Assembly (NCBI GenBank): GCA_049322215.1
Contig: JBMORU010000001.1
Location: 194,327 to 258,326, forward strand
Length of the DNA: 64,000 nucleotides
Source of the DNA: Patescibacteria group bacterium
GTDB taxonomy: Bacteria > Patescibacteriota > WWE3 > UBA101185 > UBA10185
Direction of reading: 5' to 3'
Position numbers and translations under genes: made by a program. The notes below the pieces were generated by a model. The model did not search any database. It was not told the origin of the DNA and saw only the letters and a list, made by a program, of their open reading frames with translations. Positions 27,733-51,769 of the stretch are shown one piece after another (within the stretch, counting starts at the first letter, position 1; each line of letters opens with the position of its first letter).

Positions 27733-27771
27733 ACATAAAACAATGGGAAGAGCTAAAAGCTCTTTTATGCA

Positions 27772-34987: not shown

Positions 34988-36818
34988 ATAATCTGCTCTT
35001 TATAGCTATATAACCTGGGGCACGTAGATTAAACACTGTTTGAAATTCACTGCCATCTATGGAGACATCTCCTTTATCAGTTTTAAACGTTATTTTTGTA
35101 GTACGTCCGTTGTTGCCAATATCTACGTCGACATCACTAACTTTAGAATACTTGCCACCGTATTTATCAGCCTTTTCAGCCATTTCGTCCACAGAGTAAG
35201 GATCTCCTCCCCAGCAACTTGTTGTTACAGGGGTAATGTGTTTATCATCATCATTAGATCCTTTACGCCAAACTACCCAAGCATTTAAAATATCGGCCAT
35301 TTCTTTTTCATTTAGCCAAGGGGAAGATCTACCGCAGGAATCGCTATCGAACCTGGTTCCTTTTGTCCACCATGCCCAGTAAAACCACGGGGAACCTGCT
35401 TTTTTCTCGTACGCGTCTTTTGGCCAGCTACCACTTACATCCCAACCAACGCCATCATCTATATAGCCGCCTGTTGTAGAAGAATACATTGCGTGCGTAT
35501 CACCACCTATTATTTTTCCTTTAGTATCATCAACAGCTTTTTCCCATCGTTCTGGAGGATTATTAGCTTTACTCTTTAAAAACACCTGACAATTTTGGTT
35601 AGTACAAATAGATTTACCTGCTTTCACATAGCGATAAGCATATGTTCTTGCTGCAATAGCTTGTGCTTTTAGTGCATCTTCTGGCCAATCACTAGGCATT
35701 TCTGCAATTCCATATAAATAATACTGAAAGTCTAGTTCACCTTCACCATCAACTTTTACTTTACTTGGGAAATCGTCTGCTTTTTTAACATCATTTTTAT
35801 AATAAAACTTAATAATGTCTTCGTAGCTATCACCAGCTTCAGCACGACCTTTCGCGCCATACTGACTCATACCTCTATAGTGTGTATAAGCACCATAGCT
35901 AAAAGCTGCAAAGGCAGGGCTAAACGAAGGGCTAGGTACGCTCCAATCAGGAGATTCATAATCACCAACTGTTCCGTTTATATCTGCATTTTTTTGATTC
36001 AAAACCTCTTGCTGCTTGGCACTTAAACTTGCAATTTCTTCAGATAATGACTTTAACTCACCTTCATAGTCACCTTCTTTTTCTTCAATATTGCCCAACT
36101 CAGATTGAGCTAACACTTTTTCGCTGCTTAAGTTATCTCTAACTGCAAGTAAATTGGCCTGGGATTCTTCTAAATCTTGTTTTATTTCTTCGGCGGCTGC
36201 TTTATCTGTTTCAAAATTTGTAATTTCCGCATTTAAGATATCAATTAGCCTTAAAGCTTCCGAAGAAACCGCTTTATCAAACATGTAATTTACAGTGGCA
36301 TATTCAAAGCCATTTAAATTATTATTTTGCACATTTGCAGAAAGTATTATTTCTAAATCTGATAAAATTCCCTTTTGGTAATGAGACCTAATAACTTTAT
36401 TTCTTAATGCGGTTTTTTCTTCTAAGGATCCTCTTCTATCTGTCAAATTTTCCTCTATAACTGTTAATTCTTTAACTAAAGAATCTATACTTAGTTGGAG
36501 TGCATCGATTTCTGATTGTTTTATTGATAACTGGGAAGACAGAGTTGATATTTGCGAATTAACTGCATCTTTTTTATTTCTTAAATCGTTTAATTTAGAG
36601 CTTAATGATTGATATTCTTCTTCTTTTTCTTCCTTTTCTTCAGCATAACAAGCAGCTTTGTCGTCTAAATCACTAATGTTTTTACAAGGGTCTTCGGCAC
36701 TAACAGAAAAAGTAAACAAAACGAAAAATAGTGCTATGAAAACAATTAGGACTTGACTCTTAAAGGATGGGCACGGATAATTTTTACAAGACATACACTG
36801 GAAATTATAGCAAAACAA
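34968..36818 (-). CDS. SpoIID/LytB-domain protein with N-terminal signal/TM and long coiled-coil region
   Basis: C-terminal SpoIID-like motifs (GMSQYGAKGRAEAG, EALKAQAIAARTYAYRY); heptad-rich 60-300 region. Confidence 0.65.
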   Translation of the reverse strand: MFCYNFQCMSCKNYPCPSFKSQVLIVFIALFFVLFTFSVSAEDPCKNISDLDDKAACYAEEKEEKEEEYQSLSSKLNDLRNKKDAVNSQISTLSSQLSIKQSEIDALQLSIDSLVKELTVIEENLTDRRGSLEEKTALRNKVIRSHYQKGILSDLEIILSANVQNNNLNGFEYATVNYMFDKAVSSEALRLIDILNAEITNFETDKAAAEEIKQDLEESQANLLAVRDNLSSEKVLAQSELGNIEEKEGDYEGELKSLSEEIASLSAKQQEVLNQKNADINGTVGDYESPDWSVPSPSFSPAFAAFSYGAYTHYRGMSQYGAKGRAEAGDSYEDIIKFYYKNDVKKADDFPSKVKVDGEGELDFQYYLYGIAEMPSDWPEDALKAQAIAARTYAYRYVKAGKSICTNQNCQVFLKSKANNPPERWEKAVDDTKGKIIGGDTHAMYSSTTGGYIDDGVGWDVSGSWPKDAYEKKAGSPWFYWAWWTKGTRFDSDSCGRSSPWLNEKEMADILNAWVVWRKGSNDDDKHITPVTTSCWGGDPYSVDEMAEKADKYGGKYSKVSDVDVDIGNNGRTTKITFKTDKGDVSIDGSEFQTVFNLRAPGYIAIKSRLYELKRE

Positions 36819-37165
36819 TGCTTAAAACTATACGTAATAAAAAAACAATATTAGTTTCATTAGGTATTTACTATTTCAATACTCTATTACTTTTAATGCT
36901 TCCTCAACAAGCATATGCACAATGTACCGATCCTGATACATGCGATCTTGGCGATTTAATTAGATCGGTATATGATGTAGCACGCCCCCTAGCAATAATA
37001 TTTGGTTTTATAATGATATTGGTTGCGGGTTACAAAATAACTACAAGCCAAGGAGACCCTATGAAAGTAAAAGTAGCAAAAGAAGACATGTCTTCTGCTA
37101 TACTTGGTTTAATATTTGTGCTTATTGCTGTGGGATTTTTAAGAATGATACTAAATAATTTATAA
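36818..37165 (+). CDS. small secreted two-helix membrane protein, VirB2/TrbC-like pilin candidate (paralog 1 of 4)
   Basis: Signal peptide ending AYAQ; hydrophobic helix, conserved S/T-x-GDP-x-K-x-A core (SQGDPMKVKVA), second hydrophobic helix. ORF-track start 36767 trimmed to MLKTIRNKK. Confidence 0.45.
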   Translation: MLKTIRNKKTILVSLGIYYFNTLLLLMLPQQAYAQCTDPDTCDLGDLIRSVYDVARPLAIIFGFIMILVAGYKITTSQGDPMKVKVAKEDMSSAILGLIFVLIAVGFLRMILNNL

Positions 37166-37185
37166 AATAAAAGGAGGTGTAAAAA

Positions 37186-37518
37186 ATGATATTACAAGAT
37201 GTATATGCTCAAATACCAACCACGGTAGTACAACCTCAACCTTTAGGTGTTACTACTCTAGCTGATGCTTTTGGTATTGCGACCAACGTTATTTTAGGAG
37301 CAGGTGTAGCTTTAACAGTTATCTTCTTAATTTTAGGAGGTATAAAATACATGTCTGCTAAGGGAGATCAAAAGGCAGCTGTAGAAGCAAGAAGTGCTTT
37401 AACAAACGCAGTTATTGGATTTATCGTAGTTATTGGAGCTTTCACAATTAGAATTGTTGTAACTAGTGTTATCGGTGGTAATGAAAACGTTGCAATACAA
37501 GACGTTGTACCTAACTAA
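37186..37518 (+). CDS. VirB2/TrbC-like pilin candidate (paralog 2 of 4)
   Basis: AGGAGG RBS 9 nt upstream; same helix-KGDxKAA-helix architecture (MSAKGDQKAAVEA). Confidence 0.45.
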   Translation: MILQDVYAQIPTTVVQPQPLGVTTLADAFGIATNVILGAGVALTVIFLILGGIKYMSAKGDQKAAVEARSALTNAVIGFIVVIGAFTIRIVVTSVIGGNENVAIQDVVPN

Positions 37519-37591
37519 AGAAGACTTTTCGGGACCCTGGGAAACCAGGGTCTCATTCAACAGTTTTTAGTTTATTGAATTTAGGATTATC

Positions 37592-37909
37592 ATGGCAGTT
37601 TTTGCACAGTTTGATGAGCATTTGCCTTCGGGATGCGAAGGGTGTGATGCAATAGAAATAGGAGAAATATTAGCAGTAGGCGTAAACTTATTTATGGGTA
37701 TTGCTATTTCAATGTCAACCCTTGGAATGTTATATTCAGGGGTTAAATGGGTTATGTCAAAAGGAGACCCAAAAGCAGTTGCAAATGCCAGAACTTCTTT
37801 GGTTTATAGTATAATTGGTTTCATTTTAGGTATTGGAGCACTATCTTTGAAGGTAGTTGTATTCAACAATATTGGAGATCCAGGAATAGATGATGTACCA
37901 AACTTTTAA
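37592..37909 (+). CDS. VirB2/TrbC-like pilin candidate (paralog 3 of 4)
   Basis: Same architecture (MSKGDPKAVANA). Confidence 0.45.
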   Translation: MAVFAQFDEHLPSGCEGCDAIEIGEILAVGVNLFMGIAISMSTLGMLYSGVKWVMSKGDPKAVANARTSLVYSIIGFILGIGALSLKVVVFNNIGDPGIDDVPNF

Positions 37910-38333
37910 AAAAACTTTAATTACACTTGTTTTAACACTAACATTATTTGCAAATTTTAGTGGAGTTGCCTATGCACAAGATTGTGACATTGGTGATGAA
38001 CCTACCCCTGTACAAATTGTTTGCCCTTTGCAAAAAACTTTAGTAGTTATTTACTACAGCTCAGGAGCGTTTTTTTTAATAATGGTTTTTGTTACTTCTT
38101 ATAAATTCTCAACATCACAGGGTGATCCAAAGGCAATGCAGGCAGCAAAACAGTCTTTAACATATACAGTACTTGGATTTGTTTTAACTATAACTACTTT
38201 TGCAATAACGTTTTTTATAGGAAGACAATTTGACTCGCCTTCACTAGCCGATCCAAATAGTCCTTTTACAAGCTTAACTACAGGAATATGTAATATATTG
38301 CAGTTTGCTAATATAAGCGCTCCGGGCTGCTAA
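37890..38333 (+). CDS. VirB2/TrbC-like pilin candidate (paralog 4 of 4)
   Basis: Signal peptide ending AYAQ; STSQGDPKAMQAA core; C-terminal Cys-containing extension. Confidence 0.45.
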   Translation: MMYQTFKKTLITLVLTLTLFANFSGVAYAQDCDIGDEPTPVQIVCPLQKTLVVIYYSSGAFFLIMVFVTSYKFSTSQGDPKAMQAAKQSLTYTVLGFVLTITTFAITFFIGRQFDSPSLADPNSPFTSLTTGICNILQFANISAPGC

Positions 38334-38349
38334 ACTTCTCAAGTAATAA

Positions 38350-38883
38350 CTAATAGGCTTCTAAAAATTCTCCGGGAGCAGGAGGAGTTGATATCCATAC
38401 GTAACGCACAGGCTCAACAAGCTTTTCTCCATTTGCACCTGTTAGTTCAACAGTAATTACGTACCTGGTATTTGGTTCCCATGGTTTACGTGGAAAAACT
38501 CTAACCTTAGAAGGATCTTCCTCAACAAGTACTTGAGCACCTAATTGAATATCAGGAGTTACAAAAATTTTTACAGAATCTTCTTTCACTGGAGCTGAAA
38601 ATGTCATGTGAATTATTTGAAATTCGTTATAAAAGTATTTATCTAAGTCATTTGCAGGAGGATCTACTTCTAATAAAAAGATTTCACCAACTTCTCCTGG
38701 CTGGGGTTTATCATCAATACCGGGAATACCTCCTGGTGTATCAGGTACCACAACCGGGTTTTGAGGAGTACGTGGCGCTGACGTGGGACGCAGAAAATAA
38801 TAAAGTATTACAAAACCTATTATTAAAACAAGAATTACAACTGCAGCTTTGTACTTTTTTAAACGCTCAATAAAGTTTTTCAT
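38350..38883 (-). CDS. hypothetical membrane-anchored protein with Pro-rich stalk (T4SS-locus associated)
   Basis: N-terminal TM AAVVILVLIIGFVILYYF, Pro-rich linker, about 100-aa C-terminal domain. Confidence 0.4.
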   Translation of the reverse strand: MKNFIERLKKYKAAVVILVLIIGFVILYYFLRPTSAPRTPQNPVVVPDTPGGIPGIDDKPQPGEVGEIFLLEVDPPANDLDKYFYNEFQIIHMTFSAPVKEDSVKIFVTPDIQLGAQVLVEEDPSKVRVFPRKPWEPNTRYVITVELTGANGEKLVEPVRYVWISTPPAPGEFLEAY

Positions 38884-38907
38884 ATTTTAATTATACATAA
38901 ATTTAAA

Positions 38908-41900
38908 TTAATCTTCTGGCCACCAAGAAGGTGCTCCTGGAGGCGTACCAGAACATAATCCTGAAGTTTCAGGTCTTACGGTACTACCACCTGCATCTTG
39001 AGCTTCTATATGAACGTGAGTATTGTTACCCCAGTTAAAAGTAGAGGAAAATGCTTCGCCAGGTAAATAGTCACCACCTTGAGCATTACCTAAATGCTGA
39101 ATTTTAATGGTCAGCCTTGGAGTACCATCTTGTGCAAACCCTTGCGCAGTAACAGCTTGTCCCAATGACAAACTGTAAGGCTCAGATACTGTCCAATAAG
39201 AAACATCCCCTGCAGAGGGTAAACAAACAGTTGAATCCTCTTGATAATCAACAGGGAATACATCCCATGCAAAACCAAATTCATTGCCTTGAGGTACAGT
39301 GCCATTATTGTAACAATAGTTATCTTGTGGAAAAGTACCTCCTCCGGTATCAGCATTTAAATTTGGTGCTCTTAAAGCAACACCAAGCGAAGGAATATAA
39401 GAATTACACAAAGTAATTGGTACTGCATCCCAATAAGTATTTGATCCATGACCACCTCCTGGATGTACAGCAGTGTCATTTCCTCGGTAAGAACCCACTG
39501 TAAAACCGTCTACATCTTTAAAAAAACAAAAGTTTTCGCAATATAGTTCTCCATAATTAACATCCCCCACAGGACCCCCTTCAACTTCTACATCACAGCC
39601 ACCGCCACAACCACCCACTTTTCTTGTAGGATCTATAGGAGAAATAGTAGTGAACATACCCATAATCACTATTATGGTTACTGCCATAACACCGGCCAAG
39701 GGCAAAGTACCTAAAGCTACCCATTTCATAAGTTTAATAAACATTGCTTCGGCACCACTTACTAATGAAGAAAAGTCTAAGTGAATTATTGCTTTACCTA
39801 CGGCTTCTAGAGCGTCAAGTATTTTTATAATCAAATACTGAATGGCAAGCTTTAAAGGAGTAGCAATACCCTCGGAAGCTACTAAAATAGCGTCGGTTAT
39901 TAATTCTGCAAGTATTTTCTTTAAATATTGTATTGGGGCTACAACTGCAGCTAGTTTTGTAAATGCTGCAGATTGTAAAACGTTAAGAGCTGAAGTTAAC
40001 TTTTGTAATGCACCACCATATTCCTCTGTAATTTTTAGTAAATTAATTTTGGAATTTCGCAAACTCAACTTTTGAATCAATTCATATAAAGCTGATTCGC
40101 TTAGCTGAATACCTTGTTTATCTAAAAAGGCACGAAGTTTTTGTATTTTGTCATACAATTCTTCAACTTTAACAGGAACAACTAGCTTCATGTCTTTAAG
40201 CATTTCGGCTAATTCTTCTACACTTTTAGCACCAAAAAGGCGTTGTAGGTTTTCTATTCCACCTTTTTCTCCTAATTTCAAAACTTCGTTTAGTAAATCT
40301 ATATCTTCAAAGTGTTTTCCTCCCTGAAGGGTTAAAGTTGTAACAACACCGTTTATAGTTACATCAACTTTTAGCTTATTTGAAAAAACACCAAGCTTCA
40401 TTAACTGTTGGAACGGAGCATACGCTAAGTCTTTATAATCTGAGTCATAAACTAAGCCGAAGCCATGTGTTCTCTTTATTAAGTATTCTTCAATTAACTT
40501 AGCTGGAGTAATTGGAAAGCGAATTTTAACCTTCATCCAAACTAAGTTGTTAAGAAATATTCCACTGCTTAGTTGTGACGAAATATCGCGGGCGGTTTCT
40601 CTTAAACGCATTACTTGAGCAATATCCATCCATGATGCAATTTTTGCACCACCTTCAATACCAAAAGAATTCAATATTTCTATAACGTAAGGAGCATCAG
40701 GCATTTTACTGCCCTTTAATAAACGCTCTTCCATTAAATATTTCAAAAAGGTGCGCTCTACACCATCACCAAAAAGAGATCCTTTACCTACAACGTCTGC
40801 AACTAAAGACCCACCTGAAAATCTATCTTTAAATACTTCTATTCTCGTAGCTAAAGTACGCAATGCAGCACCATCCCCTGCCATAGCAGCTTCTACTAAA
40901 GGGGTAAACCCTGTGTCGGTACGTTCATCAAAAATTGCTTTTCTAAAGTCATCAACAAAGTTATGTAAAGGTTTGACTGAATTTTCAAAAACCTCAACCA
41001 TTTCAGTCATGCCGCTTATAGTATCTTGCGCATAAGCACCACTTAAAGACGTAGCAAGCCCTTGTGCACTGGTTAGTTGTTTATCTAAAAGCTTCAATGC
41101 TGAATCTAAAGACGCTTCATTACCTTCACGTAAGGCTTTAGACACAGCCTTGTTAGCATTATTTATAGTTTTTCCAATACCACCTAAAGTAGTTGCTAGC
41201 TCAAACTCATCAATTGCAGTATTAATTGTGGTAGATATTTGAGCTAAATCCTCAGCACTATTTAATAAAGGATTGCTACCTAATAATGAGTCAGATAATA
41301 CCTTAACTTTCTTTCCATCAATTGTTCTTTCTACAAAATGGGTATTTTTAATCTCTTCTAAATGAGCCTTGTATATGTCAGCACCTTTTTGTGCAACCCC
41401 TATATAACTGGAATCTCTTGCTGTAGGACTTCTTTTATCGTTAACGAATTTACCAAAAGCAGTAGTAAATTCTTCGTACATATTTATATTTTTATCTACT
41501 TCTGCTACCGAAGAAGCCTGACCTTTCACATACCCTGAATAATCATAAAGTTTTTCTACACGATTAACTGTTTCATCGGCTAAAGATAAATCTTTACCCA
41601 TACGTTGTTGTAACAAGTCTTTTGCAGTATCAAAGCCGAAACCAAGCTTACCTTTACCATTCATCATGGCAACAAACATGTCTCTTTCAGCACGCAAATC
41701 CATGTCGGAATAACTGAAAAACTCAGTGCCCATACTTTTAACAAAGCTAGAAACACCTTTTTGAGGTTGAGTTACCATTTTATGTAAATCAACCTTTAAC
41801 GAAGTTACACCGGCAAGTTCTTCTTCATCTCCCGAAGCTTGAACATCGACCATGTCAAATTTTCTTGGGGCTCCGGTTACACGCAAAGATCTTTTAGCAT

Positions 41901-42111
41901 CGGCAACCATGTTGTTATATACAAATGTAATTGGAGTAGCAGGTAACTTATAAGCTTCTGAAATTTTATCAAAGGCTGCATCAATATCAGCATCTAAATC
42001 TTCGTAGATGCTGAAGTCACTTTCATAAGGTCTTGAATAGAATCTACCTTGTGCAGGTATCTTTCTATCGCCCGGATAGTATCCGATATTAAACGGGTTA
42101 CCACTTGCCAT
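38908..42111 (-). CDS. large (1067 aa) membrane protein with C-terminal extracytoplasmic M23-like peptidase domain (putative T4SS-associated cell-wall hydrolase)
   Basis: About 800-aa cytoplasmic helical region, TM block at about aa 790-830, then Cys/Gly-rich domain with AVHPGGGHGS and THVHIEAQDAGG, resembling the M23/LytM H-x(n)-D and HxH zinc motifs. Confidence 0.45.
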   Translation of the reverse strand: MASGNPFNIGYYPGDRKIPAQGRFYSRPYESDFSIYEDLDADIDAAFDKISEAYKLPATPITFVYNNMVADAKRSLRVTGAPRKFDMVDVQASGDEEELAGVTSLKVDLHKMVTQPQKGVSSFVKSMGTEFFSYSDMDLRAERDMFVAMMNGKGKLGFGFDTAKDLLQQRMGKDLSLADETVNRVEKLYDYSGYVKGQASSVAEVDKNINMYEEFTTAFGKFVNDKRSPTARDSSYIGVAQKGADIYKAHLEEIKNTHFVERTIDGKKVKVLSDSLLGSNPLLNSAEDLAQISTTINTAIDEFELATTLGGIGKTINNANKAVSKALREGNEASLDSALKLLDKQLTSAQGLATSLSGAYAQDTISGMTEMVEVFENSVKPLHNFVDDFRKAIFDERTDTGFTPLVEAAMAGDGAALRTLATRIEVFKDRFSGGSLVADVVGKGSLFGDGVERTFLKYLMEERLLKGSKMPDAPYVIEILNSFGIEGGAKIASWMDIAQVMRLRETARDISSQLSSGIFLNNLVWMKVKIRFPITPAKLIEEYLIKRTHGFGLVYDSDYKDLAYAPFQQLMKLGVFSNKLKVDVTINGVVTTLTLQGGKHFEDIDLLNEVLKLGEKGGIENLQRLFGAKSVEELAEMLKDMKLVVPVKVEELYDKIQKLRAFLDKQGIQLSESALYELIQKLSLRNSKINLLKITEEYGGALQKLTSALNVLQSAAFTKLAAVVAPIQYLKKILAELITDAILVASEGIATPLKLAIQYLIIKILDALEAVGKAIIHLDFSSLVSGAEAMFIKLMKWVALGTLPLAGVMAVTIIVIMGMFTTISPIDPTRKVGGCGGGCDVEVEGGPVGDVNYGELYCENFCFFKDVDGFTVGSYRGNDTAVHPGGGHGSNTYWDAVPITLCNSYIPSLGVALRAPNLNADTGGGTFPQDNYCYNNGTVPQGNEFGFAWDVFPVDYQEDSTVCLPSAGDVSYWTVSEPYSLSLGQAVTAQGFAQDGTPRLTIKIQHLGNAQGGDYLPGEAFSSTFNWGNNTHVHIEAQDAGGSTVRPETSGLCSGTPPGAPSWWPED

Positions 42112-42227
42112 ACATAATATTCTATATATAAAAAAGAAGATTTCAAAGACATGAAAAATTCAAAGTAATAATTTCAATTTTGCAAAGGTGTTGAATTTGA
42201 TAAAAATTTGTGAAAAAATTGCTGTAG

Positions 42228-43610
42228 ATGACAAAGAGACTCTTAACCACAACATTTATAACATTACTAATAACAGGTGTTTTCGTTCTTGTGCCTAGAA
42301 ATGTTTTTGCGCAAGATTCTTGTAATATTGGAGAGGTTAATGGATGTACATTTACACCCGCTCCAGATGGAAATGCAGAAAAATGTTTATTCGAAGGTGA
42401 AAGAGCAAACCATCCCCTTTTAGACATTAGAAGAACAATGAAAAATTCTATAGTTTCTTTACTTGTAGACACTGGTACAAGTGTTGCAACAGGTAGAAGT
42501 TTAAATCAAATCATTGATTGTATTGGACAGGAATATGCAAACATTTGTAATGCAGGTTCTGATCAAGATTATTGGAATGCCGTTGGTGAACAATGTGGTT
42601 TTTCAGTCATCCCTGGTTCTAATGCTGCAGCCAGAGCACGCGGTAGTTTGGCAGGTATTACTTACACAGTAGGTAGTGCTATGAGTGCAGATCATCCTAT
42701 TCCCACAAACTTAGCTCATTATTTTAGATATCAAGTAAGAAACGTACCTGTATTGGGCGATAGAGTTTACGCTCAAGTAGATTACAATATTTTAGGAGCA
42801 GACTTTATACTACAGTTATGGCAAGTGTTTAGAAACGTCGCTTACGGAATATTAGCAATAGTAATGATAGTAATAGGTGTAATGATTATGGTACGCAAAA
42901 AAATCAGCCCTCAGGTAATTGTAACCGTACAAAACGCCTTACCAAGAGTAGTGCTAGGTGTATTGCTTATTACATTTAGTTACCCAATAGGTGCTACAGG
43001 AGCTGCTTTAATTTGGCCATTAAGAACCGTAGTAGACGGGATAATGAATGATCTTGGAGCAGGCTTTGCAGTTTCCGAAGCAGGATTTGGTGCAATTGTA
43101 ATGTTAATAATCACAGCTGTAATAGCAGGTATGTTTTTTGGAGGCCCTATAGGAGTAATGGCAATTGGGCTATCTGCTGTATCTTTGACAATAATGGTAA
43201 TGTTAATATGGATAATAATTCTATTAATTGCCTTAATGAAAACAATAACCGTGTACGTAAGAATATTAATGATGATAGTGTTTGCTCCCGTTCAATTTGC
43301 AATAGGTACTGTGCCGGGCAATGAGAAAATGATTAAGGATTGGTTTAAGTTATTAGCTGCAAGAATAGTAGCCATACCCGCAATGTATTTTATGATTTCA
43401 TTAGCAGGATTCATAATTAATCAATCACTAAACGCAGGTTTTGATCCAGCAGCATCTCCAGCAGGAAGTGAGTTACTAGCTTGGTTAGAAGCATCAGGAC
43501 AAACAGCAGTTATAATGTTATTCGTTCCATTCTTGTCCATTTACTTACTAATAACAGCCGTAGGTATGCCTAAGAAAATAGAAAAGTTATTCATGGGCAT
43601 CAAGAGATAA
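42228..43610 (+). CDS. VirB6/TrbL-like polytopic membrane protein
   Basis: Signal peptide, about 180-aa extracytoplasmic N-domain, then 5-6 TM helices rich in Gly/Ile/Met; position in locus consistent with VirB6. Confidence 0.4.
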   Translation: MTKRLLTTTFITLLITGVFVLVPRNVFAQDSCNIGEVNGCTFTPAPDGNAEKCLFEGERANHPLLDIRRTMKNSIVSLLVDTGTSVATGRSLNQIIDCIGQEYANICNAGSDQDYWNAVGEQCGFSVIPGSNAAARARGSLAGITYTVGSAMSADHPIPTNLAHYFRYQVRNVPVLGDRVYAQVDYNILGADFILQLWQVFRNVAYGILAIVMIVIGVMIMVRKKISPQVIVTVQNALPRVVLGVLLITFSYPIGATGAALIWPLRTVVDGIMNDLGAGFAVSEAGFGAIVMLIITAVIAGMFFGGPIGVMAIGLSAVSLTIMVMLIWIIILLIALMKTITVYVRILMMIVFAPVQFAIGTVPGNEKMIKDWFKLLAARIVAIPAMYFMISLAGFIINQSLNAGFDPAASPAGSELLAWLEASGQTAVIMLFVPFLSIYLLITAVGMPKKIEKLFMGIKR

Positions 43611-43679
43611 ACTCAAGGCAAAACCCCTTTAATTGGAAATCTCAATAAGTATAATGTATAGTAGCTAGTTATTTGATCT

Positions 43680-45776
43680 ATGGCTTTAAAAGACACACAA
43701 AAAGTAAATAAACAGCACGCAGTACCACAAAATATAATGGATGTGGAATTTAAAATAATTGGTGAATTAACTATGCGCCAATTTTTTTACCTTCTTATTT
43801 TTGGGGGAATTGGATATGGAGCATTTACACTTATCAGTAATTCTTTAATTAAATGGCCAATAATTTTGGCTTCAGCAGCATGTGGTTTACTGTTAGCATT
43901 TGTACCAGTGCAAGAACGAAGCATAGACGAATGGGTGGTTAACTTCTTAAGGGCTATATACAGAACCAATCAAATGATTTGGCGAAAAGATCCTACAATT
44001 CCAACCGCCTTCCTATACCAAAGTCTGGATGTAGTAAGACAGGAATTAATTACATTAGCACCTACTTCTAGTAGAAGAAAATTAGAAGAGTATCTGCAAT
44101 TTAAAGATGAACCCAAAGTTAGTGACGATCTTGATATTCCAGAAATTGATTTTATACAAAAAGTACATCAGGCATTTGCATACGATGCTAAACAAACAAA
44201 GAAAGCACAAAGTAGCATTAAAACAACACAATTTAACACACAAGTCACACAGCAAGTACAGGCACCGCCTCAGATAACTACTACGACACAACAACCAATA
44301 GCTATGCCAAAGCAACAAGTGACACCACCTGCCGAAATACCTAATCAATCAGCACCAAAAATTAACCCACATCCTACAATTGTACAGGAGTCTCCTGTAA
44401 CACCATCTAAAAAAGAAACTATATCTCCTATAGAAGTACAACCTGACACTTCATCTAAAAATGACACCGAAAATAAGCAAAATACTAGAGATATGCTTAA
44501 TAAGACCGAGCAACAACCACAAGCACGTACTGTAATCAAGCCTCCAGAATTGCCAAAAAGAGAGACGAAAAATCAAGAACTAAGTAAACCAACTCCTCCG
44601 CAGTTTAATATAGCCAAAAAGCCAGAACCAGAATTACAGCAACAACCTCAATTTAAGCCAGAGCTACCAAAATTTGAAGTATCAAAAGAAACAAATGAGC
44701 CTTCAACACCAAAGGTAGCTACAGAAAAGGAGGAAACACAAGACACTATTAACAGAGTCACACCAGCACCAGCACCAGCACCAGCACCAGCACCAGCACC
44801 AGCACGGCAAGAGGCACCTCCCCAACCTCCAGAGCTAGAGTTGCCAGACATTGAAACGGGACAGGATTTAACACTTGTGCCTATTACTCCCAACAGGCAT
44901 ACTGGAAGAAGATTCACTAGCTTATTACCAACTCAAGGTGAGATATTATTACCCATACGCGGAGAAAGAGTTTTAAAAACCACAGAAGAAGCTAATATAG
45001 AAAATGAAATAGCTGAAAAAGCTAAGCAACTAAGACTAATGATTGAACAAATAAAACAAGACGAAAAATTCAGATCTACTATAACTAAATTTCAAACTGC
45101 TAAGCCTTTGCAGGAAGATGGTTATAAACTACCAAAGATAGAAACAGCAGAACACGAAGCACAGCTAAATAAAGAAGCAAAAGAAGTTATAGAAACAGTA
45201 GAAGAAGAAAATACAAGATTAACAAAAGAAATAGAACAATTAAAAACAGATTTGGAAACCACAAATAAACCACAAGAAGCGCAAGAAAAGAAAGAAGAAT
45301 TAACCAAGTTAGAACAAGAAAAAGCCGAGGTATTAAAAAACTACGAAGCATTAAAGCAAAAAGTACAAGAACTAGAAGAAAAACTAGAAAAAAAACAAGG
45401 CGAACTGCCTAAAATAATAGTTCAAAAAGTTTACGATAACGGAGGCACCGACACACAACCAACAACTAACCCTACAATAGCTCAAATACAACCACTAACA
45501 AATGCGCCTAACATTATATCTGGCGTAGTAAAAAGCACCAATGGTGAAACATTAAGTGGAGTTGTAGTAATAATAAAAAACCAAAAAAATGAACCAGCAA
45601 GGGCGCTAAAAACAAATGCATTAGGACAATTTTCGATAACTACACCTTTATCTAATGGTACCTATATTATTGAAGTAGACAAGTTTAATAAAACTAATTT
45701 AAGCTTTGATATAATAAGCATTGAAGCTAAAGGAGAGGTTCTTCCACCTTTGGAATTTGTAGGAAAACCAGTTTAG
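43680..45776 (+). CDS. VirB3-like membrane module fused to a long Pro/Gln/Glu-rich linker, coiled coil and C-terminal CarboxypepD_reg-like beta-sandwich domain
   Basis: N-terminal about 100 aa with two TM helices (FFYLLIFGGIGYGAFTLI; WPIILASAACGLLLAFV), like VirB3/PrgI; (PA)8 repeat; EQLKTDLE... coiled coil; C-terminal ISGVVKSTNGETLSGVVVIIKN. Confidence 0.4.
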   Translation: MALKDTQKVNKQHAVPQNIMDVEFKIIGELTMRQFFYLLIFGGIGYGAFTLISNSLIKWPIILASAACGLLLAFVPVQERSIDEWVVNFLRAIYRTNQMIWRKDPTIPTAFLYQSLDVVRQELITLAPTSSRRKLEEYLQFKDEPKVSDDLDIPEIDFIQKVHQAFAYDAKQTKKAQSSIKTTQFNTQVTQQVQAPPQITTTTQQPIAMPKQQVTPPAEIPNQSAPKINPHPTIVQESPVTPSKKETISPIEVQPDTSSKNDTENKQNTRDMLNKTEQQPQARTVIKPPELPKRETKNQELSKPTPPQFNIAKKPEPELQQQPQFKPELPKFEVSKETNEPSTPKVATEKEETQDTINRVTPAPAPAPAPAPAPARQEAPPQPPELELPDIETGQDLTLVPITPNRHTGRRFTSLLPTQGEILLPIRGERVLKTTEEANIENEIAEKAKQLRLMIEQIKQDEKFRSTITKFQTAKPLQEDGYKLPKIETAEHEAQLNKEAKEVIETVEEENTRLTKEIEQLKTDLETTNKPQEAQEKKEELTKLEQEKAEVLKNYEALKQKVQELEEKLEKKQGELPKIIVQKVYDNGGTDTQPTTNPTIAQIQPLTNAPNIISGVVKSTNGETLSGVVVIIKNQKNEPARALKTNALGQFSITTPLSNGTYIIEVDKFNKTNLSFDIISIEAKGEVLPPLEFVGKPV
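44759..44806 (+). repeat. hexanucleotide microsatellite (CACCAG/CCAGCA) x about 7.5 encoding (Pro-Ala)8
   Basis: caccagcaccagcaccagcaccagcaccagcaccagcaccag read directly in the sequence. Confidence 0.85.
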
Positions 45777-45777
45777 T

Positions 45778-46482
45778 ATGGCAGCACAAAGTGTAAAAGC
45801 AACAACTCAAGATCATTTAGACATAGAAGATATTAAAGATAACTTCGTTGTGTTGAAAAATGGAACAGTATGTTCTGTATTGCAAACTACAGCAGTAAAT
45901 TTTGATCTTCTATCTGAAATCGAGCAAGATGCTATTATTGCAGCATTTTCTATGTTATTAAACTCAATAACATTTCCTGTTCAGGTTGTTATTAGATCAA
46001 AAAAACTGGATATAACAAAATATATAGAAAAAGTCATAAAGGTAGAAAATAAACTTACAGATCCGCTAATTAAAAGACAGGCAGAATCTTACAGAAAATT
46101 TGTACAAGAAATTATTCAAAAAAATGAGGTTTTAGATAAACAATTTTATGTTGCAGTACCCGCAGGTGACAACATGATTACAGAAGTAGGATCTAATCCG
46201 TTCGACTTTTTAACCAAGTTGTTTGGAGCTCAATCAAAAAGAGTCAATGTTAATGTAGATGCAGCAATAAGTGGCGCACAGGCAAAATTAATGCCAAAAG
46301 TAGATCACATAGTTAATGAGTTTAATAGAATTGGAGTAAAAACTAGGCAATTAACTACACACGAACTGGTAGAATTATATTTCGATATATATAATCCAGC
46401 ATCTGTGCACGGGCAGAAAATAAGAACAGATATAGAAGATTATAAAACAGCTATAGTAGAACCAGCTATATTTGCAGAATAA
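45778..46482 (+). CDS. hypothetical protein resembling a VirB4 N-terminal domain
   Basis: DHLDIEDIKDNFVVLKNGTVCSVLQTTAVNFDLLSEIEQDAIIAAFSMLLNSITFPVQVVI follows the layout that opens VirB4/TraE N-domains; starts 1 nt after the upstream stop. Confidence 0.4.
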   Translation: MAAQSVKATTQDHLDIEDIKDNFVVLKNGTVCSVLQTTAVNFDLLSEIEQDAIIAAFSMLLNSITFPVQVVIRSKKLDITKYIEKVIKVENKLTDPLIKRQAESYRKFVQEIIQKNEVLDKQFYVAVPAGDNMITEVGSNPFDFLTKLFGAQSKRVNVNVDAAISGAQAKLMPKVDHIVNEFNRIGVKTRQLTTHELVELYFDIYNPASVHGQKIRTDIEDYKTAIVEPAIFAE

Positions 46483-48706
46483 AAATACTATGAAATTGTT
46501 TGGCAAGAAAAAACAACAAAATGCGAATACTGAAAATCAAACCCTAGCGCAAAATCAAGCAGGGGCTCAAAAAGTAAATGCAGCACCTCCAATAACAACA
46601 CCAGAAACAAGAGCAAAGAAAAACAAAAATAAAAACGAAGAAAAACCTGCCGAAATGTTGGCTAGAGGAATGGTTAATATCAAAGATATAGTAGCACCAC
46701 CTGCTATCGAGGTGGATTTTAACCATATAAAAATTGGGAATAACTTTTACAGAACATTATTTATTTCAGGATACCCTAGATTTGTAGGCGCAAACTGGTT
46801 ATCTCCAATAATTAATTTTGAACATACTTTAGACATTTCATTTTTTTACTATCCTGTGAAATCAAAAGGTGTTTTAGATGACTTAAGAAGAAAAATAACG
46901 GAAATGGAAGCTACAATGCATTCTGATGAAGATAGAGGTAAAATAGCCGACCCTGGTGTAAAAATAGCATTAGACGATGCAAAAACTTTACAGGAACAAC
47001 TAGTAAAAGGTGTTGAAAAATTTTTCCAGTTTTCCTTTTATATAACTATTAGAGCAAATTCCATGGAAGAATTGGAAAATGCTGCCAGTAAATTAGAATC
47101 AACATTGGGATCACTATTATTAATATCAAAATCAGCAACTTTACAAATGGAGGAAGCTTTTCAATCTACAGTACCTGTAGCCCTAGATAAACTATTAATA
47201 ACTAGAAACATGGATACAACTAGTTTAGCCACTACATTTCCTTTTACATCGTCAGATTTAACATCTGACGATGGAATAATGTACGGACTTAACAAGCACA
47301 ACGGTTCTTTAATTATTTTTGACAGATTCTCTCTTGAAAATGCAAATACAGTAGTATTTGCTAAATCCGGTTCAGGTAAATCGTATTTTGTGAAATTAGA
47401 AGCACTTCGTTTAATAGCATTTGGTGCAGAAATTATTATTATTGACCCCGAAGCAGAATATAAACCAATCGCTGAGGTTATTGGTGGAGATTTTATAAGT
47501 TTTTCTTCTACTTCACCGGATAGAATAAATCCATTTGACCTTTCAGGTATTGCTACAGAAGGGGAAAATGAATTAGGTCAAAAGATTTTATCTTTACACA
47601 CGCTATTTAAACTTGTACTAGGAGATTTAACACCCATTGAAGAAGCTATATTAGACAGAGCACTAATTGAAACATACAGAATAAAAGGAATTACAACAGA
47701 TCCAGATACACAAAGAACAAAAGAACCTCCTGTAATGGAAGATTTATACAAGGTACTTTTAGGTGCAGAAGAACCAGAAGCAAGAAGCATGTCAGAAAGG
47801 TTAGAAAAATATATTAGAGGCTCTCTAGCAGGAATTTTTGACCAACAATCTACATTAAGAATAGACAATAGAATGACTGTATTTTCTACACAAAATTTAG
47901 AAGATGCTTTAAGACCAATTGCTTTTTACATTATTTTAGACTTCGTTTGGACGAAAGTTAAAAAAAGCTTAAAGAAAAGAATTTTAATAGTAGAAGAGGC
48001 TTGGTACTTGTTACAAAACGAAGACAGCGCACGCTTTATTTATGGTATAGCAAAAAGAGCCAGAAAATATTACTTAGGTTTAACAACGATTACTCAAGAC
48101 GTAGATGACTTTTTAGCCTCAGATTATGGAAAAGTCATTGTTACAAATTCATCTATCCAAGTGCTTTTAAAACAGCACCCTGCAGGAATTGATAGACTAG
48201 CTGATACATTTTACCTATCTGAGGGAGAAAAGCGTTTACTGCTCGCTGCAGAACGCGGAGAAGGACTATTTTTCGCTGGAGCTAATCACGTAGCCATTAA
48301 AATCATGGCTTCCGAAGAGGAACACAACTTAATTACTACAAACCCTGAAGAAATTTTAAGAATGAAGGAACAACGAGAACAAGCTCAATTACAAGCGGCA
48401 CAACCACAACCAGGAAGTACAGATAAAAAGTATGAAAGATTTGAAAGATTAGACCCAAATAGATACACTACAAACCCAAATGATTCAACACGTCCTGCAC
48501 AAGCACCAAATCCTATGAGCAGCCCTATGCAACCTGGGCCTTTGCCAAATCAAAACCCAATAGTACAACCAACAATGCCTATGCAATCACCGCAACCCAC
48601 ACAAACTCCAACACCGCCACAAAACAACGCTGAAACAGTAAGTTTAAATACTGAAGACCCACAGGATAATACAGGAACAATTTCGCTTTCAAATAATCAA
48701 GTTTAA
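46472..48706 (+). CDS. VirB4/TraE-family type IV secretion ATPase with Gln/Pro-rich C-terminal tail
   Basis: Walker A VVFAKSGSGKS, IIIDPEAEYKP and Walker B-like RILIVEEAWYL segments typical of VirB4; N-domain YRTLFISGYPRFV; last about 110 aa low complexity (QAQLQAAQPQPGS...PQPTQTPTPP). Confidence 0.75.
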   Translation: MQNKNTMKLFGKKKQQNANTENQTLAQNQAGAQKVNAAPPITTPETRAKKNKNKNEEKPAEMLARGMVNIKDIVAPPAIEVDFNHIKIGNNFYRTLFISGYPRFVGANWLSPIINFEHTLDISFFYYPVKSKGVLDDLRRKITEMEATMHSDEDRGKIADPGVKIALDDAKTLQEQLVKGVEKFFQFSFYITIRANSMEELENAASKLESTLGSLLLISKSATLQMEEAFQSTVPVALDKLLITRNMDTTSLATTFPFTSSDLTSDDGIMYGLNKHNGSLIIFDRFSLENANTVVFAKSGSGKSYFVKLEALRLIAFGAEIIIIDPEAEYKPIAEVIGGDFISFSSTSPDRINPFDLSGIATEGENELGQKILSLHTLFKLVLGDLTPIEEAILDRALIETYRIKGITTDPDTQRTKEPPVMEDLYKVLLGAEEPEARSMSERLEKYIRGSLAGIFDQQSTLRIDNRMTVFSTQNLEDALRPIAFYIILDFVWTKVKKSLKKRILIVEEAWYLLQNEDSARFIYGIAKRARKYYLGLTTITQDVDDFLASDYGKVIVTNSSIQVLLKQHPAGIDRLADTFYLSEGEKRLLLAAERGEGLFFAGANHVAIKIMASEEEHNLITTNPEEILRMKEQREQAQLQAAQPQPGSTDKKYERFERLDPNRYTTNPNDSTRPAQAPNPMSSPMQPGPLPNQNPIVQPTMPMQSPQPTQTPTPPQNNAETVSLNTEDPQDNTGTISLSNNQV

Positions 48707-49812: not shown

Positions 49813-49838
49813 AAGTTTGTAAATTCCAAATAAATAAT

Positions 49839-50333: not shown

Positions 50334-50377
50334 AATTTCCTAAAAATTTCTTAAAAACTAACTAAATTACACAAATC

Positions 50378-51196: not shown

Positions 51197-51197
51197 A

Positions 51198-51428
51198 TTA
51201 TTTTTGATCAGCTAAAGGCACTGGATCATAACCTCCTTTACCAAACGGGTTGCATCGCAAAACACGATAAATTCCCAATAAACTACCTTTTAATACACCA
51301 TGAATGCTTATAGCCTCGTATGCATATTTGGAACAACTAGGTTCAAAACGGCATACTTTTAACCCATACCTACCAGGAGAAAGGTACGTTTTGTAAAGCC
51401 TTAACATACTCAGAAGAAATTTCTTCAT
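51198..51428 (-). CDS. yidD: membrane protein insertion efficiency factor YidD
   Basis: YKTYLSPGRYGLKVCRFEPSCSKYAYEAI matches the YidD/haemolytic-domain signature; overlaps rnpA 3' end. Confidence 0.8.
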   Translation of the reverse strand: MKKFLLSMLRLYKTYLSPGRYGLKVCRFEPSCSKYAYEAISIHGVLKGSLLGIYRVLRCNPFGKGGYDPVPLADQK

Positions 51429-51735: not shown

Positions 51736-51769
51736 AAGAGACTAAAAGCATTTCTCAATGATTTTAGTT

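What the first reader, a model, noticed from the sequence alone, without database searches (positions are those of the whole stretch)
36818..48706. Minimal type IV secretion-like locus next to dnaN lacking coupling protein, relaxase and VirB11
The locus encodes four small VirB2/TrbC-like proteins, an anchored protein, a 1067-aa membrane protein ending in an M23-like hydrolase, a VirB6-like, a VirB3-like fusion, a VirB4-N-like protein and a VirB4 ATPase. No VirD4, relaxase, VirB11, oriT-like repeat or integrase was found anywhere in the 64 kb, so it does not look like a conjugative element. It may be a chromosomally fixed secretion or pilus apparatus, as proposed for episymbiotic reduced-genome bacteria. 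The composition appears native.
Basis: partly seen in the sequence, partly recalled or inferred. Interest (0 to 1): 0.75.

Follow-up and report, generated by a model that had tools for sequence, protein, structure and literature searches.

The report
Chromosomal Patescibacteria type IV secretion locus
This is the chromosomal, pilin-bearing, relaxase-less type IV secretion gene cluster that ultrasmall Patescibacteria (here a WWE3-type genome) carry next to their replication origin; the cluster is real, but this kind of system was already described in 2023 and 2025.

Summary
Window 36.8-48.7 kb encodes four tandem VirB2-like pilins, a membrane-anchored Ig-like protein, a 1067-aa bitopic protein, a 7-TM VirB6-like protein, a PrgI/VirB3 protein with a long tail, a TrsD (VirB4 N-domain-like) protein and a VirB4 ATPase. 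It abuts dnaN in the origin region.

I found no coupling protein, relaxase, VirB11, integrase or flanking repeat in the 64 kb, nor in about 8 kb beyond each end. GC content is native. The PrgI-TrsD-VirB4-dnaN order recurs in about 30 related WWE3 genomes, so this is not an ICE.

Two claims are only moderately supported:
- **VirB6-like:** supported by fold only (top PDB matches are R388 TrwI/VirB6).
- **M23-like:** weak. There is no Pfam hit, and the HxH motif and catalytic His are conserved but HxxxD is not.

The interpretation matches published work. Wang et al. 2023 found the system essential for epibiotic growth in a Saccharibacterium. Quinonero-Coronel et al. 2025 showed it is phylum-wide, derived from the monoderm MPF-FATA class, lacks a relaxase and lies near dnaA/dnaN. 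This locus is therefore a new member of a known kind.

One caveat: "lacks a coupling protein" is shown only for this neighbourhood. T4CP-like ATPases sit beside the same module in other Patescibacteria.

The parts
34968..36818 (-). 616-aa exported coiled-coil protein with a SpoIID (lytic transglycosylase-type) domain, divergent from the pilin array. It is a possible accessory cell-wall enzyme; membership in the system is inferred, not shown.
   Evidence: Pfam SpoIID E=1.1e-18. One N-terminal hydrophobic segment. The same adjacency to the pilin array occurs in L032 and L045.
36767..37165 (+). VirB2-like pilin 1. The real start is probably Met18 at 36818. It has a signal peptide ending AYA|Q.
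   Evidence: PF18895 E=2e-8, 34.6 bits against a 26.6 cutoff; TrbC PF04956 1.5e-4. Hydrophobic hairpin.
37186..37518 (+). VirB2-like pilin 2. It has a strong RBS and no classical signal peptide, and is the best-conserved pilin among relatives (56-59% identity).
   Evidence: PF18895 E=7.8e-8. RBS AAAGGAGGTG upstream. tblastn against L004, L032 and L042.
37531..37554 (+). GC-rich 10-bp hairpin just downstream of pilin 2. It may be an attenuator or mRNA stabiliser.
   Evidence: Centroid fold -20.7 kcal/mol, z=-3.2. A comparable hairpin occurs after the orthologue in L032 only.
37592..37909 (+). VirB2-like pilin 3
   Evidence: PF18895 E=1.4e-6, 28.7 bits.
37890..38333 (+). VirB2-like pilin 4, with a signal peptide ending AYA|Q.
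   Evidence: PF18895 E=1.2e-5, 25.7 bits, just under the cutoff. The four pilins are 22-36% identical to each other.
38350..38883 (-). 177-aa protein with an N-terminal TM anchor, a Pro-rich stalk and a Big_5-type Ig-like domain. It is not VirB8-like.
   Evidence: Big_5 E=2.2e-4. TM at residues 13-31. Orthologues in L004, L016, L032 and L042 share the FSxPVDxxSV...W..T.Y.IT pattern.
38908..42111 (-). 1067-aa bitopic protein (NCBI ACOZAO_01265). It has an N-terminal domain of about 790 aa, probably cytoplasmic, helical and coiled-coil, with a conserved MAxxNPxxxGYYPGDR start. One TM helix follows, then an extracytoplasmic Cys-containing C-terminal domain of about 220 aa that is distantly M23/LytM-like (encoded at 38911-39564).
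   Evidence: No Pfam hit. TM at about 798-816. Only 21 representative clusters were found among 1.84 billion proteins. Invariant H, D, H and HxHxE residues. All four PDB profile hits have the M23/LytM fold, best E=0.008. hhalign against LytM gave probability 60% over the C-terminal half only. The single-sequence AF2 model was unusable, pLDDT 34.
42228..43610 (+). 460-aa polytopic VirB6-like channel protein (ACOZAO_01270), with a signal peptide or first TM helix, a variable N-terminal domain and about 6 TM helices.
   Evidence: 7 hydrophobic segments. 39 homologues, all uncharacterised; those with a source name are from Patescibacteria lineages. AF2 with an MSA gave pLDDT 80-93 in the TM core. 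The top six Foldseek PDB hits are all TrwI/VirB6 of R388, best E=8e-3, probability 1.0, TM 0.51. There is no sequence-profile hit to Pfam or PDB.
43680..45776 (+). 698-aa PrgI/VirB3-like protein (2 TM helices, N-in/C-in by the positive-inside rule) fused to a long tail that is probably cytoplasmic. The tail holds a P/Q/K-rich low-complexity stretch, a conserved LPIRGE motif, a coiled coil and a C-terminal CarboxypepD_reg beta-sandwich.
   Evidence: PrgI E=8.6e-12; CarboxypepD_reg 33.2 bits against a 32.3 cutoff. The tail is conserved across WWE3 and is a separate ORF without TM helices in L033 and L035. PDB hits were only coiled-coil noise.
45778..46482 (+). 234-aa TrsD-like protein, equivalent to a separately encoded VirB4 N-terminal domain.
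   Evidence: NCBIfam VirB4_plasma positions 99-281 at E=3e-12; TrsD E=4e-10. 60-73% identical in WWE3 relatives. Orthologues carry Pfam TraC-like PF26593.
46472..48706 (+). 744-aa VirB4 ATPase with Walker A AKSGSGKS and Walker B LIVEEAW, plus low-complexity N- and C-terminal extensions.
   Evidence: NCBIfam CD1110 family E=1.3e-113, above the cutoff; VirB4_plasma positions 265-893. Pfam P-loop_TraG 1.2e-26. Motifs.
48703..49812 (-). dnaN (context, not part of the machine). It is followed by jag/khpB, yidC, yidD, rnpA and rpmH on the - strand, and by dnaA at 52077-53459 on the + strand.
   Evidence: Pfam. The cumulative GC-skew minimum lies at about 51-53 kb.

Best explanation
[quoted passage not shown] This clade derives from the monoderm MPF-FATA conjugation machinery.

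What is shown: the gene content, its homology assignments, its fixed position beside dnaN in the origin region, and the absence of mobility genes nearby.

What I infer about how it works:
- A VirB4 hexamer, whose N-domain is supplied separately by TrsD, docks on the membrane through PrgI/VirB3.
- Together with the polytopic VirB6-like protein it forms a cytoplasmic-membrane translocon.
- This translocon extracts the four sequence-divergent VirB2-like pilins from the membrane and polymerises them into a surface filament.
- The 1067-aa bitopic protein, with its external M23-like domain, and probably the neighbouring SpoIID-domain protein, open the peptidoglycan locally. The wall affected could be the cell's own or the host's.
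- The anchored Ig-like protein decorates or supports the extracellular part.

By analogy with Southlakia epibionticum, where the homologous cluster is essential for epibiotic growth although competence (comEC) is dispensable, the apparatus most likely works at the contact zone with a host bacterium. It would move macromolecules other than relaxase-piloted DNA, either exporting proteins or taking up host material. It is not a conjugation system.
For: - Component assignments.
- Split VirB4: TrsD maps to model positions 99-281 and VirB4 to 265-893 of the same NCBIfam model.
- Walker motifs are intact in 44 of 44 relatives.
- The best VirB4 model is a Firmicutes ICE family (CD1110), i.e. monoderm type.
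- All 43 related loci are Patescibacteria, mostly WWE3, at 58-78% VirB4 identity, and about 30 show the same PrgI-TrsD-VirB4-dnaN(-)-jag-yidC order.
- Full-locus synteny, including the SpoIID gene, the pilin array, the 190-aa and 1179-aa proteins and the VirB6-like gene, is seen in L045. It is also seen in L004, L016, L032 and L042.
- The VirB6-like gene, a pilin array and a protein of about 1150 aa co-occur in distant Patescibacteria as well.
- GC content is native.
- No relaxase, T4CP, integrase or VirB11 occurs in the window or about 8 kb beyond it. There are no att- or oriT-like repeats.
- Literature: the SEML1_0005-0019 cluster has the same parts list and is essential (PMC10633639 main text and supplementary tables). 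The phylum-wide survey reports MPF-FATA ancestry, TrsD, PrgI, VirB2 arrays, missing relaxases and dnaA/dnaN proximity (PMC12102498).
Against: - Function is entirely inferred. There are no expression, structural or genetic data for WWE3.
- No VirB8-like component was found. The 177-aa protein is Ig-like, not NTF2-like.
- VirB6 is supported only by a moderate fold match with TM 0.51.
- The M23-like domain lacks the canonical HxxxD zinc motif, having GxAxD instead, so catalytic activity is uncertain.
- A T4CP-like ATPase may exist elsewhere in the 1.11-Mb genome. It sits beside the same module in L047 and L049. DNA or coupled-substrate transfer therefore cannot be excluded from this window alone.
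Confidence: 0.85

Rival explanations
1. The locus is a decayed or cryptic integrative conjugative element (or an integrated plasmid) whose relaxase, coupling protein and integrase were lost or lie just outside the window.
For: VirB4, PrgI and TrsD are homologous to Gram-positive ICE and plasmid conjugation proteins. In one distant relative (L047) a tyrosine integrase and a T4CP-like gene lie within 8 kb of the pilin/VirB6 module.
Against: The same gene order next to dnaN occurs in about 30 WWE3 genomes at only 64-78% VirB4 identity, which indicates vertical inheritance. GC content is native. No integrase, relaxase, T4CP, tRNA target or flanking repeats are nearby. Both flanks are core housekeeping genes.
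Confidence: 0.03
2. The machine is an import device. It would be a ComB- or Ced-like T4SS that takes up DNA or other host-derived macromolecules as nutrients, rather than exporting substrates.
For: VirB4 also matches the archaeal DNA-import ATPases CedB (1.3e-12) and CedD. A relaxase and T4CP, which are needed for export of DNA, are missing locally. Uptake is proposed as a candidate role in PMC11665869. Patescibacteria cannot make nucleotides de novo (PMC10633639).
Against: The CedB and CedD hits are far below their cutoffs and reflect general VirB4 homology. No ComEC- or ComEA-like or CedA-like channel gene sits in the locus. Direction of transport cannot be read from sequence.
Confidence: 0.2
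3. The system is only a pilus or adhesion organelle. VirB4, VirB6 and PrgI serve solely to assemble a VirB2-type filament for attachment to host cells, and no substrate is translocated.
For: Four divergent pilin paralogues (22-36% identity) suggest surface variation or host-range adaptation, as discussed in PMC12102498. No coupling ATPase is nearby. An Ig-like anchored protein is present in the locus.
Against: These genomes already carry type IV pili for adhesion and motility. Prepilin-type genes are present in this window at 17508-17945 and 19731-20312. The large conserved cytoplasmic domains (about 790 aa of the 1067-aa protein and about 600 aa of the PrgI tail) are hard to explain by pilus assembly alone.
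Confidence: 0.15

Closest known systems
T4SS of Candidatus Southlakia epibionticum ML1 (SEML1_0005-0019; Wang et al. 2023, PMC10633639)
   Same: It is chromosomal and lies a few genes from dnaA/dnaN. It has an array of PF18895 pilins divergent from the core, a PrgI -> TrsD-like -> VirB4 order, a VirB6-like polytopic protein, uncharacterised proteins of about 1000-1100 aa, an exported Ig-like (PEGA) protein and cell-wall hydrolases in the cluster. It has no relaxase or recognisable coupling protein in the cluster.
   Different: - Class: Saccharimonadia rather than WWE3.
- Pilins: six rather than four.
- VirB6-like protein: 1088 aa ('extended') rather than 460 aa.
- PrgI: 300 aa rather than 698 aa.
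- Hydrolase: a lysozyme/glucosaminidase protein rather than an M23-like domain plus a SpoIID neighbour.
- An NTF2 (VirB8-like) protein is present there but was not found here.
- Essentiality is demonstrated only there.
Patescibacteria VirB4 clade / MPF-FATA-derived T4SS (Quinonero-Coronel et al. 2025, PMC12102498)
   Same: VirB4 with adjacent TrsD, PrgI-type VirB3, VirB6 and VirB2 arrays of 2-11 genes at about 25% identity. There is no relaxase, the T4CP is rarely near virB4, and dnaA, dnaN, rnpA and rpmH lie nearby.
   Different: The main text does not name WWE3 or describe its locus. It also does not describe the PrgI fusion to a coiled-coil/CarboxypepD_reg tail, the family of about 1100-aa proteins with an M23-like end, or the SpoIID neighbour.
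Gram-positive conjugative T4SSs of the MPF-FATA class (pGO1 TrsC/D/E, pCF10 PrgH/I/J/K, CTn2 CD1110)
   Same: VirB4 best matches the CD1110 family, TrsD matches pGO1 TrsD, and PrgI matches pCF10 PrgI. The architecture is monoderm, without VirB7, VirB9, VirB10 or VirB11. The system is associated with a peptidoglycan hydrolase. From my own knowledge, pCF10 PrgK carries LytM, SLT and CHAP domains.
   Different: Those systems are on mobile elements with a relaxase, T4CP (PcfC, TrsK) and oriT. They use surface adhesins instead of VirB2 pilins and have recognisable VirB8-like proteins.
R388 TrwI / VirB6 (PDB 7o3v, 8rtd, 8rt9)
   Same: These are the best structural matches of the 460-aa protein's helical membrane core.
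   Different: Identity is only 12-15% and TM 0.3-0.5, with no sequence-profile match. R388 is a diderm MPF-T system, in which VirB6 sits under a VirB5 stalk. No VirB5 is identifiable here.

Membership tests
Patescibacteria-clade T4SS (MPF-FATA-derived) | VirB4 ATPase with intact nucleotide-binding motifs | tested here: met
   NCBIfam CD1110 family scored 380.8 bits against a 325 cutoff. Walker A is AKSGSGKS and Walker B is LIVEEAW; the E-for-D change is shared by 41 of 44 relatives.
Patescibacteria-clade T4SS (MPF-FATA-derived) | VirB4 belongs to the monophyletic Patescibacteria clade nested in MPF-FATA | tested here: inconclusive
   The best profile is a monoderm ICE family, and all 43 relatives at 58-78% identity are Patescibacteria. 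No phylogeny with reference MPF classes was built.
Patescibacteria-clade T4SS (MPF-FATA-derived) | TrsD-like gene adjacent to virB4 | tested here: met
   The 234-aa ORF overlaps the virB4 start by 11 nt. TrsD E=4e-10; VirB4 model positions 99-281.
Patescibacteria-clade T4SS (MPF-FATA-derived) | VirB3 homologue of the PrgI type | tested here: met
   PF12666 scored 45.9 bits against a cutoff of 27.
Patescibacteria-clade T4SS (MPF-FATA-derived) | VirB6-like polytopic membrane protein | tested here: met
   Met by fold only. The six best Foldseek PDB hits are TrwI/VirB6, best E=8e-3, probability 1.0, TM 0.51. Pfam and PDB sequence profiles are negative.
Patescibacteria-clade T4SS (MPF-FATA-derived) | Array of divergent VirB2-like pilins near virB4 | tested here: met
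   Four tandem PF18895 proteins at 22-36% pairwise identity.
Patescibacteria-clade T4SS (MPF-FATA-derived) | No relaxase, and T4CP not adjacent | tested here: met
   Pfam scans of every non-nested ORF of at least 100 aa, tblastn with two Patescibacteria T4CP-like proteins, and about 8 kb beyond each window end. The rest of the 1.11-Mb genome could not be examined.
Patescibacteria-clade T4SS (MPF-FATA-derived) | Chromosomal location near dnaA/dnaN | tested here: met
   virB4 overlaps the dnaN stop by 4 nt (convergent), and dnaA is 3.4 kb away.
Patescibacteria-clade T4SS (MPF-FATA-derived) | Required for host-associated (epibiotic) growth | not testable with these tools
   Shown only for S. epibionticum by Tn-seq (PMC10633639).
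Conjugative element (ICE or plasmid) | Relaxase plus coupling protein plus oriT | tested here: not met
   None in the window or the adjacent 8 kb.
Conjugative element (ICE or plasmid) | Integrase, att repeats, atypical composition and patchy distribution | tested here: not met
   No integrase (Pfam scans). Only chance-level repeats. GC 0.32-0.38 matches the surroundings. Synteny is conserved across WWE3.
Peptidase M23 (LytM domain), for the C-terminus of the 1067-aa protein | Match to the family profile PF01551 | tested here: not met
   No Pfam hit at E<0.1 for the window protein, nor at E<0.01 for three related large proteins.
Peptidase M23 (LytM domain), for the C-terminus of the 1067-aa protein | HxxxD zinc-binding motif | tested here: not met
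   The equivalent invariant motif is G-x-A-x-D. An invariant His lies about 60 residues upstream in GHGSNxYW.
Peptidase M23 (LytM domain), for the C-terminus of the 1067-aa protein | Catalytic His and HxH motif in the conserved C-terminal beta-strands | tested here: met
   Invariant H157, H183 and H185 (HVHIE). These align to PHLHFE and HVHFQ of M23 structures and LytM. The matches are weak: E=0.008 and hhalign probability 60%.

The most novel reading that the evidence does not exclude
The WWE3 version may be a genuinely T4CP-independent translocon. In this reading, two large lineage-specific cytoplasmic modules take over substrate recruitment: the roughly 600-aa coiled-coil/beta-sandwich tail fused to PrgI, and the roughly 790-aa N-domain of the 1067-aa protein with its conserved MAxxNPxxxGYYPGDR start. 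The external atypical M23-like domain (GxAxD plus a remote His) would cut the host's wall, not the cell's own, to open a feeding junction.
Probability: 0.1. Interest if true: 0.7.

Novelty: new member of a known kind. Interest (0 to 1): 0.3.

Why it matters
The Patescibacteria T4SS is one of the few candidate machines for how these ultrasmall, biosynthetically poor bacteria exploit their hosts. Its substrate and direction of transport are still unknown (PMC11665869).

This locus adds a clean WWE3-class example from a 1.11-Mb contig. It also points to a few class-specific parts that could guide experiments:
- a PrgI fused to a conserved tail;
- a narrow family of proteins of about 1100 aa ending in an atypical M23-like domain;
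- a conserved SpoIID-domain neighbour.

It does not change the current picture of these systems.

Tried and rejected
- **Homologue search for the 1067-aa protein.** The search for homologous proteins with the protein alone and with a 5-sequence alignment returned only the query itself, so no MSA was available for structure prediction.
- **Structure of the M23-like domain.** The single-sequence AF2 model had pLDDT 34, and I did not use it for fold search.
- **afdb50 fold library.** It was unavailable.
- **PDB profile searches.** For the N-terminal 790 aa of the 1067-aa family and for the PrgI tail they gave only coiled-coil noise. For the VirB6-like family they gave nothing. A Pfam scan of all 33 VirB6-like homologues also gave nothing relevant.
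- **177-aa protein as a VirB8 analogue.** Rejected, because its conserved pattern is a Big_5 Ig-like domain.
- **ICE hypothesis.** Rejected on synteny, composition, repeats and gene content.
- **Promoter and terminator scan.** It was no better than shuffled sequence.
- **Hairpin after pilin 2.** It is conserved in only one of four relatives checked, so I make no claim about regulation.

Full report
**Observation.**
- four small + strand ORFs: 36767-37165, 37186-37518, 37592-37909 and 37890-38333;
- two - strand ORFs: 38350-38883 (177 aa) and 38908-42111 (1067 aa);
- a + strand run: 42228-43610 (460 aa), 43680-45776 (698 aa), 45778-46482 (234 aa) and 46472-48706 (744 aa).

The run ends 4 nt inside the convergent dnaN (48703-49812).

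Pfam and NCBIfam support most of the assignments:
- All four small proteins match T4SS_pilin PF18895. Three are above the gathering score and the fourth is 0.9 bits below it.
- The 698-aa protein starts with a PrgI (VirB3-like) domain (E=8.6e-12) and ends in a CarboxypepD_reg beta-sandwich.
- The 234-aa protein matches TrsD and positions 99-281 of a VirB4 model.
- The 744-aa protein is a VirB4 of the CD1110 family (E=1.3e-113, above the curated cutoff). It covers positions 265-893 of that same VirB4 model.

TrsD plus VirB4 therefore behave as a split VirB4. Walker A is intact. Walker B reads EEAW, a substitution shared by 41 of 44 relatives.

**The less certain components.**
*The 460-aa protein.* It has seven hydrophobic segments but no Pfam or PDB sequence-profile match, even for its 33 aligned homologues. 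An AlphaFold2 model built with that alignment is confident in the membrane core, with pLDDT 80-93. Its six best PDB matches are all TrwI/VirB6 chains of the R388 T4SS, the best at E=8e-3, probability 1.0 and TM 0.51. 'VirB6-like' is thus supported by fold and context only.

*The 1067-aa protein.* It has no Pfam hit. It has one TM helix near residue 800 and a Cys-containing C-terminal domain of about 220 aa. An exhaustive phmmer search with that domain found only 21 representative clusters in 1.84 billion proteins, nearly all at the C-termini of 1000-1450-aa proteins. Their alignment has invariant H39, D101, H157, H183, H185 and E187.

A profile of it hits only four PDB sequences at E<10, and all four have the M23/LytM fold: 9gy1 at E=0.008, then 8s3m, SpoIIQ 3uz0 and 2gu1. 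All align the 'H ... G..G ... HxHxE' half. The canonical HxxxD motif is replaced by GxAxD.

So 'M23-like' is plausible but atypical, and family membership is not established. A single-sequence structure model was useless, with pLDDT 34.

*The 177-aa protein.* It is a TM-anchored Big_5-type Ig-like protein, not a VirB8 analogue.

**Not a mobile element.**
I Pfam-scanned every ORF of at least 100 aa that is not nested in a longer ORF. The neighbours are housekeeping genes:
- dnaG, deoxyhypusine synthase, a Na/H exchanger, an ABC transporter, dcd, smpB with tmRNA, GT87 and a SpoIID-domain protein;
- dnaN, jag, yidC, rnpA and dnaA;
- MurT/GatD, Wzy_C, tsaD, proS and an aaRS at the window end.

No T4CP, relaxase, VirB11 or integrase was seen. 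Thirteen of the scanned ORFs had no significant hit.

Direct and inverted repeats around the locus are at chance level. GC content of 0.32-0.38 matches the window. The cumulative GC-skew minimum at about 51-53 kb fits an origin beside dnaA. About 8 kb beyond each end of the window is also housekeeping: rpoD, PGI and ROK on one side, a class I aaRS on the other.

**Relatives.**
The 1067-aa and 460-aa proteins are NCBI entries ACOZAO_01265 and ACOZAO_01270 of a 'Patescibacteria group bacterium' MAG, on a 1,112,869-bp contig.

VirB4 relatives in one-genome-per-species GTDB contigs are all Patescibacteria. Most are labelled candidate division WWE3, at 58-78% identity. In about 30 of the 43 loci the order PrgI-fusion, TrsD, VirB4, dnaN(-), jag(-), yidC(-) is the same.

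The whole locus recurs in L004, L016, L032 and L042. L045 additionally shows the SpoIID gene on the far side of the pilin array. In a second WWE3 arrangement (L006, L008, L018, L043) the gene upstream of the PrgI fusion is an unrelated epimerase-fusion protein. The pilin/VirB6/large-protein module is therefore not always adjacent.

In more distant Patescibacteria (L047-L049) the VirB6-like gene again sits with pilin arrays and, in L048 and L049, with a convergent protein of about 1150 aa. In L047 and L049 a 731-778-aa ATPase lies 6-8 kb away. It matches TrwB_AAD_bind and TraG-D_C above the Pfam cutoffs, which makes it T4CP-like. No homologue of it occurs in the window or in any WWE3 locus fetched.

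**Comparison with what is known.**
Wang et al. 2023 (PMC10633639) described an 'apparent T4SS' (SEML1_0006-0019) a few genes from the start of the Southlakia epibionticum chromosome. It comprises six PF18895 pilins, a VirB6-like protein, a PrgI protein, a hypothetical protein upstream of a TraC/VirB4 ATPase, proteins of about 1000-1100 aa and a lysozyme. Just outside the range they quote, SEML1_0005 encodes an exported Ig-like protein. No recognisable coupling or relaxase proteins are present, and nearly all of these genes are essential in co-culture.

Quinonero-Coronel et al. 2025 (PMC12102498) surveyed 3,035 Patescibacteria genomes and found the following:
- VirB4 is present in 2,417 of them and forms a monophyletic clade nested in MPF-FATA.
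- TrsD, PrgI-type VirB3, VirB6 and VirB2 arrays (2-11 genes, about 25% identity) lie near virB4.
- Relaxases are nearly absent.
- T4CP homologues are common but rarely near virB4.
- dnaA, dnaN, rnpA and rpmH are enriched in the neighbourhood.

A 2025 review calls these systems 'the most exciting newcomers' of the superfamily and notes that their role is unknown (PMC12857230; PMC11665869). The present locus fits this description point by point. WWE3 is not named in the main text of the 2025 survey.

**Mechanism (inferred).**
- VirB4, with TrsD as its detached N-domain, is anchored by PrgI. Together with the VirB6-like protein it forms a monoderm-type membrane translocon.
- The translocon polymerises VirB2-like pilins. 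Pilin 2 is a candidate major subunit, because it has a strong RBS, is the most conserved paralogue, and is followed by a stable hairpin. This assignment is speculative.
- The external M23-like domain and the SpoIID-domain neighbour would remodel peptidoglycan.
- By the positive-inside rule, the PrgI tail and the first 790 aa or so of the 1067-aa protein are probably cytoplasmic. They are conserved, and they may scaffold the machine or recruit substrates.
- Because a relaxase is absent, and comEC is dispensable while the T4SS is essential in the one tested relative, the likeliest role is contact-dependent exchange with a host bacterium (protein export or uptake) rather than conjugation.

**Verdict.**
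The system type is already published, so this is a new member (WWE3) of a known kind, and the interest score is low to moderate at 0.3. The phrase 'lacking a coupling protein' should be read as 'none within about 80 kb around the locus'.

Noticed in passing
window 34968-36818 (-): A 616-aa exported protein with a long coiled coil and a SpoIID domain is transcribed divergently from the pilin array. The same adjacency occurs in L032 and L045. It may be the lytic-transglycosylase partner of the T4SS.
   Followed up: partly
window 37531-37554 (+): A stable 10-bp GC hairpin (z=-3.2) lies directly after pilin 2. A similar hairpin with a U-tract follows the orthologue in L032, but not in L004, L016 or L042.
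   Followed up: partly
window 46472-48706 and L001-L043: The VirB4 Walker B motif is EEAW instead of the usual DEAW in 41 of 44 WWE3-type sequences. Three more distant relatives (L033 and L036 shown; the third is probably L035) keep DEAW.
   Followed up: partly
window 38908-42111 (-), N-terminus: The 1067-aa family shares a strikingly conserved extreme N-terminus, MAxxNPxxxGYYPGDR, of unknown meaning. The 790-aa N-domain matches nothing but coiled coils.
   Followed up: partly
L049 16244-18439 (-); L047 701-3037 (+): T4CP-like ATPases (DUF87, TrwB_AAD_bind and TraG-D_C above Pfam cutoffs) lie 6-8 kb from the VirB6-like/pilin module in other Patescibacteria. In L047 a tyrosine integrase is next to it. 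No homologue occurs in the window or in the WWE3 loci.
   Followed up: partly
L033 7588-9198; L035 2751-4286: In Woykebacteria-like relatives the coiled-coil/CarboxypepD_reg 'tail' is a separate ORF without TM helices. The WWE3 698-aa protein is therefore a fusion of PrgI with another conserved T4SS-associated protein.
   Followed up: partly
window 48703-53459: The origin region has an unusual layout. dnaN lies on the - strand downstream of rpmH-rnpA-yidD-yidC-jag, and dnaA is divergent on the + strand. The cumulative GC-skew minimum is at about 51-53 kb. The T4SS core genes would be transcribed head-on to replication.
   Followed up: no
window 17508-17945 (-), 19731-20312 (+): Two proteins carry the prepilin N-terminal methylation motif (type IV pilus or T2SS-type pilins). 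They are separate from the T4SS pilins.
   Followed up: no
window 27327-28233 (-): A tmRNA gene (tag ADEDVLVAQPAMVGAFA) lies next to smpB.
   Followed up: no
window 3251-4273 (+); 20861-24442 (-); 53774-55689 (+): A deoxyhypusine synthase homologue (E=3e-100), a 1193-aa protein with CBM6/CBM35 carbohydrate-binding modules, and a MurT/GatD pair (lipid II amidation, typical of Gram-positive-type walls).
   Followed up: no
L044 1653-2350: A HEPN/nucleotidyltransferase toxin-antitoxin-like pair is inserted between the VirB6-like gene and the PrgI region in one relative.
   Followed up: no
L002-L042 record titles: Many ENA 'uncultured Candidatus Saccharibacteria' bins carry VirB4 and synteny of the WWE3 type. 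Their taxonomic labels are probably generic or wrong.
   Followed up: no
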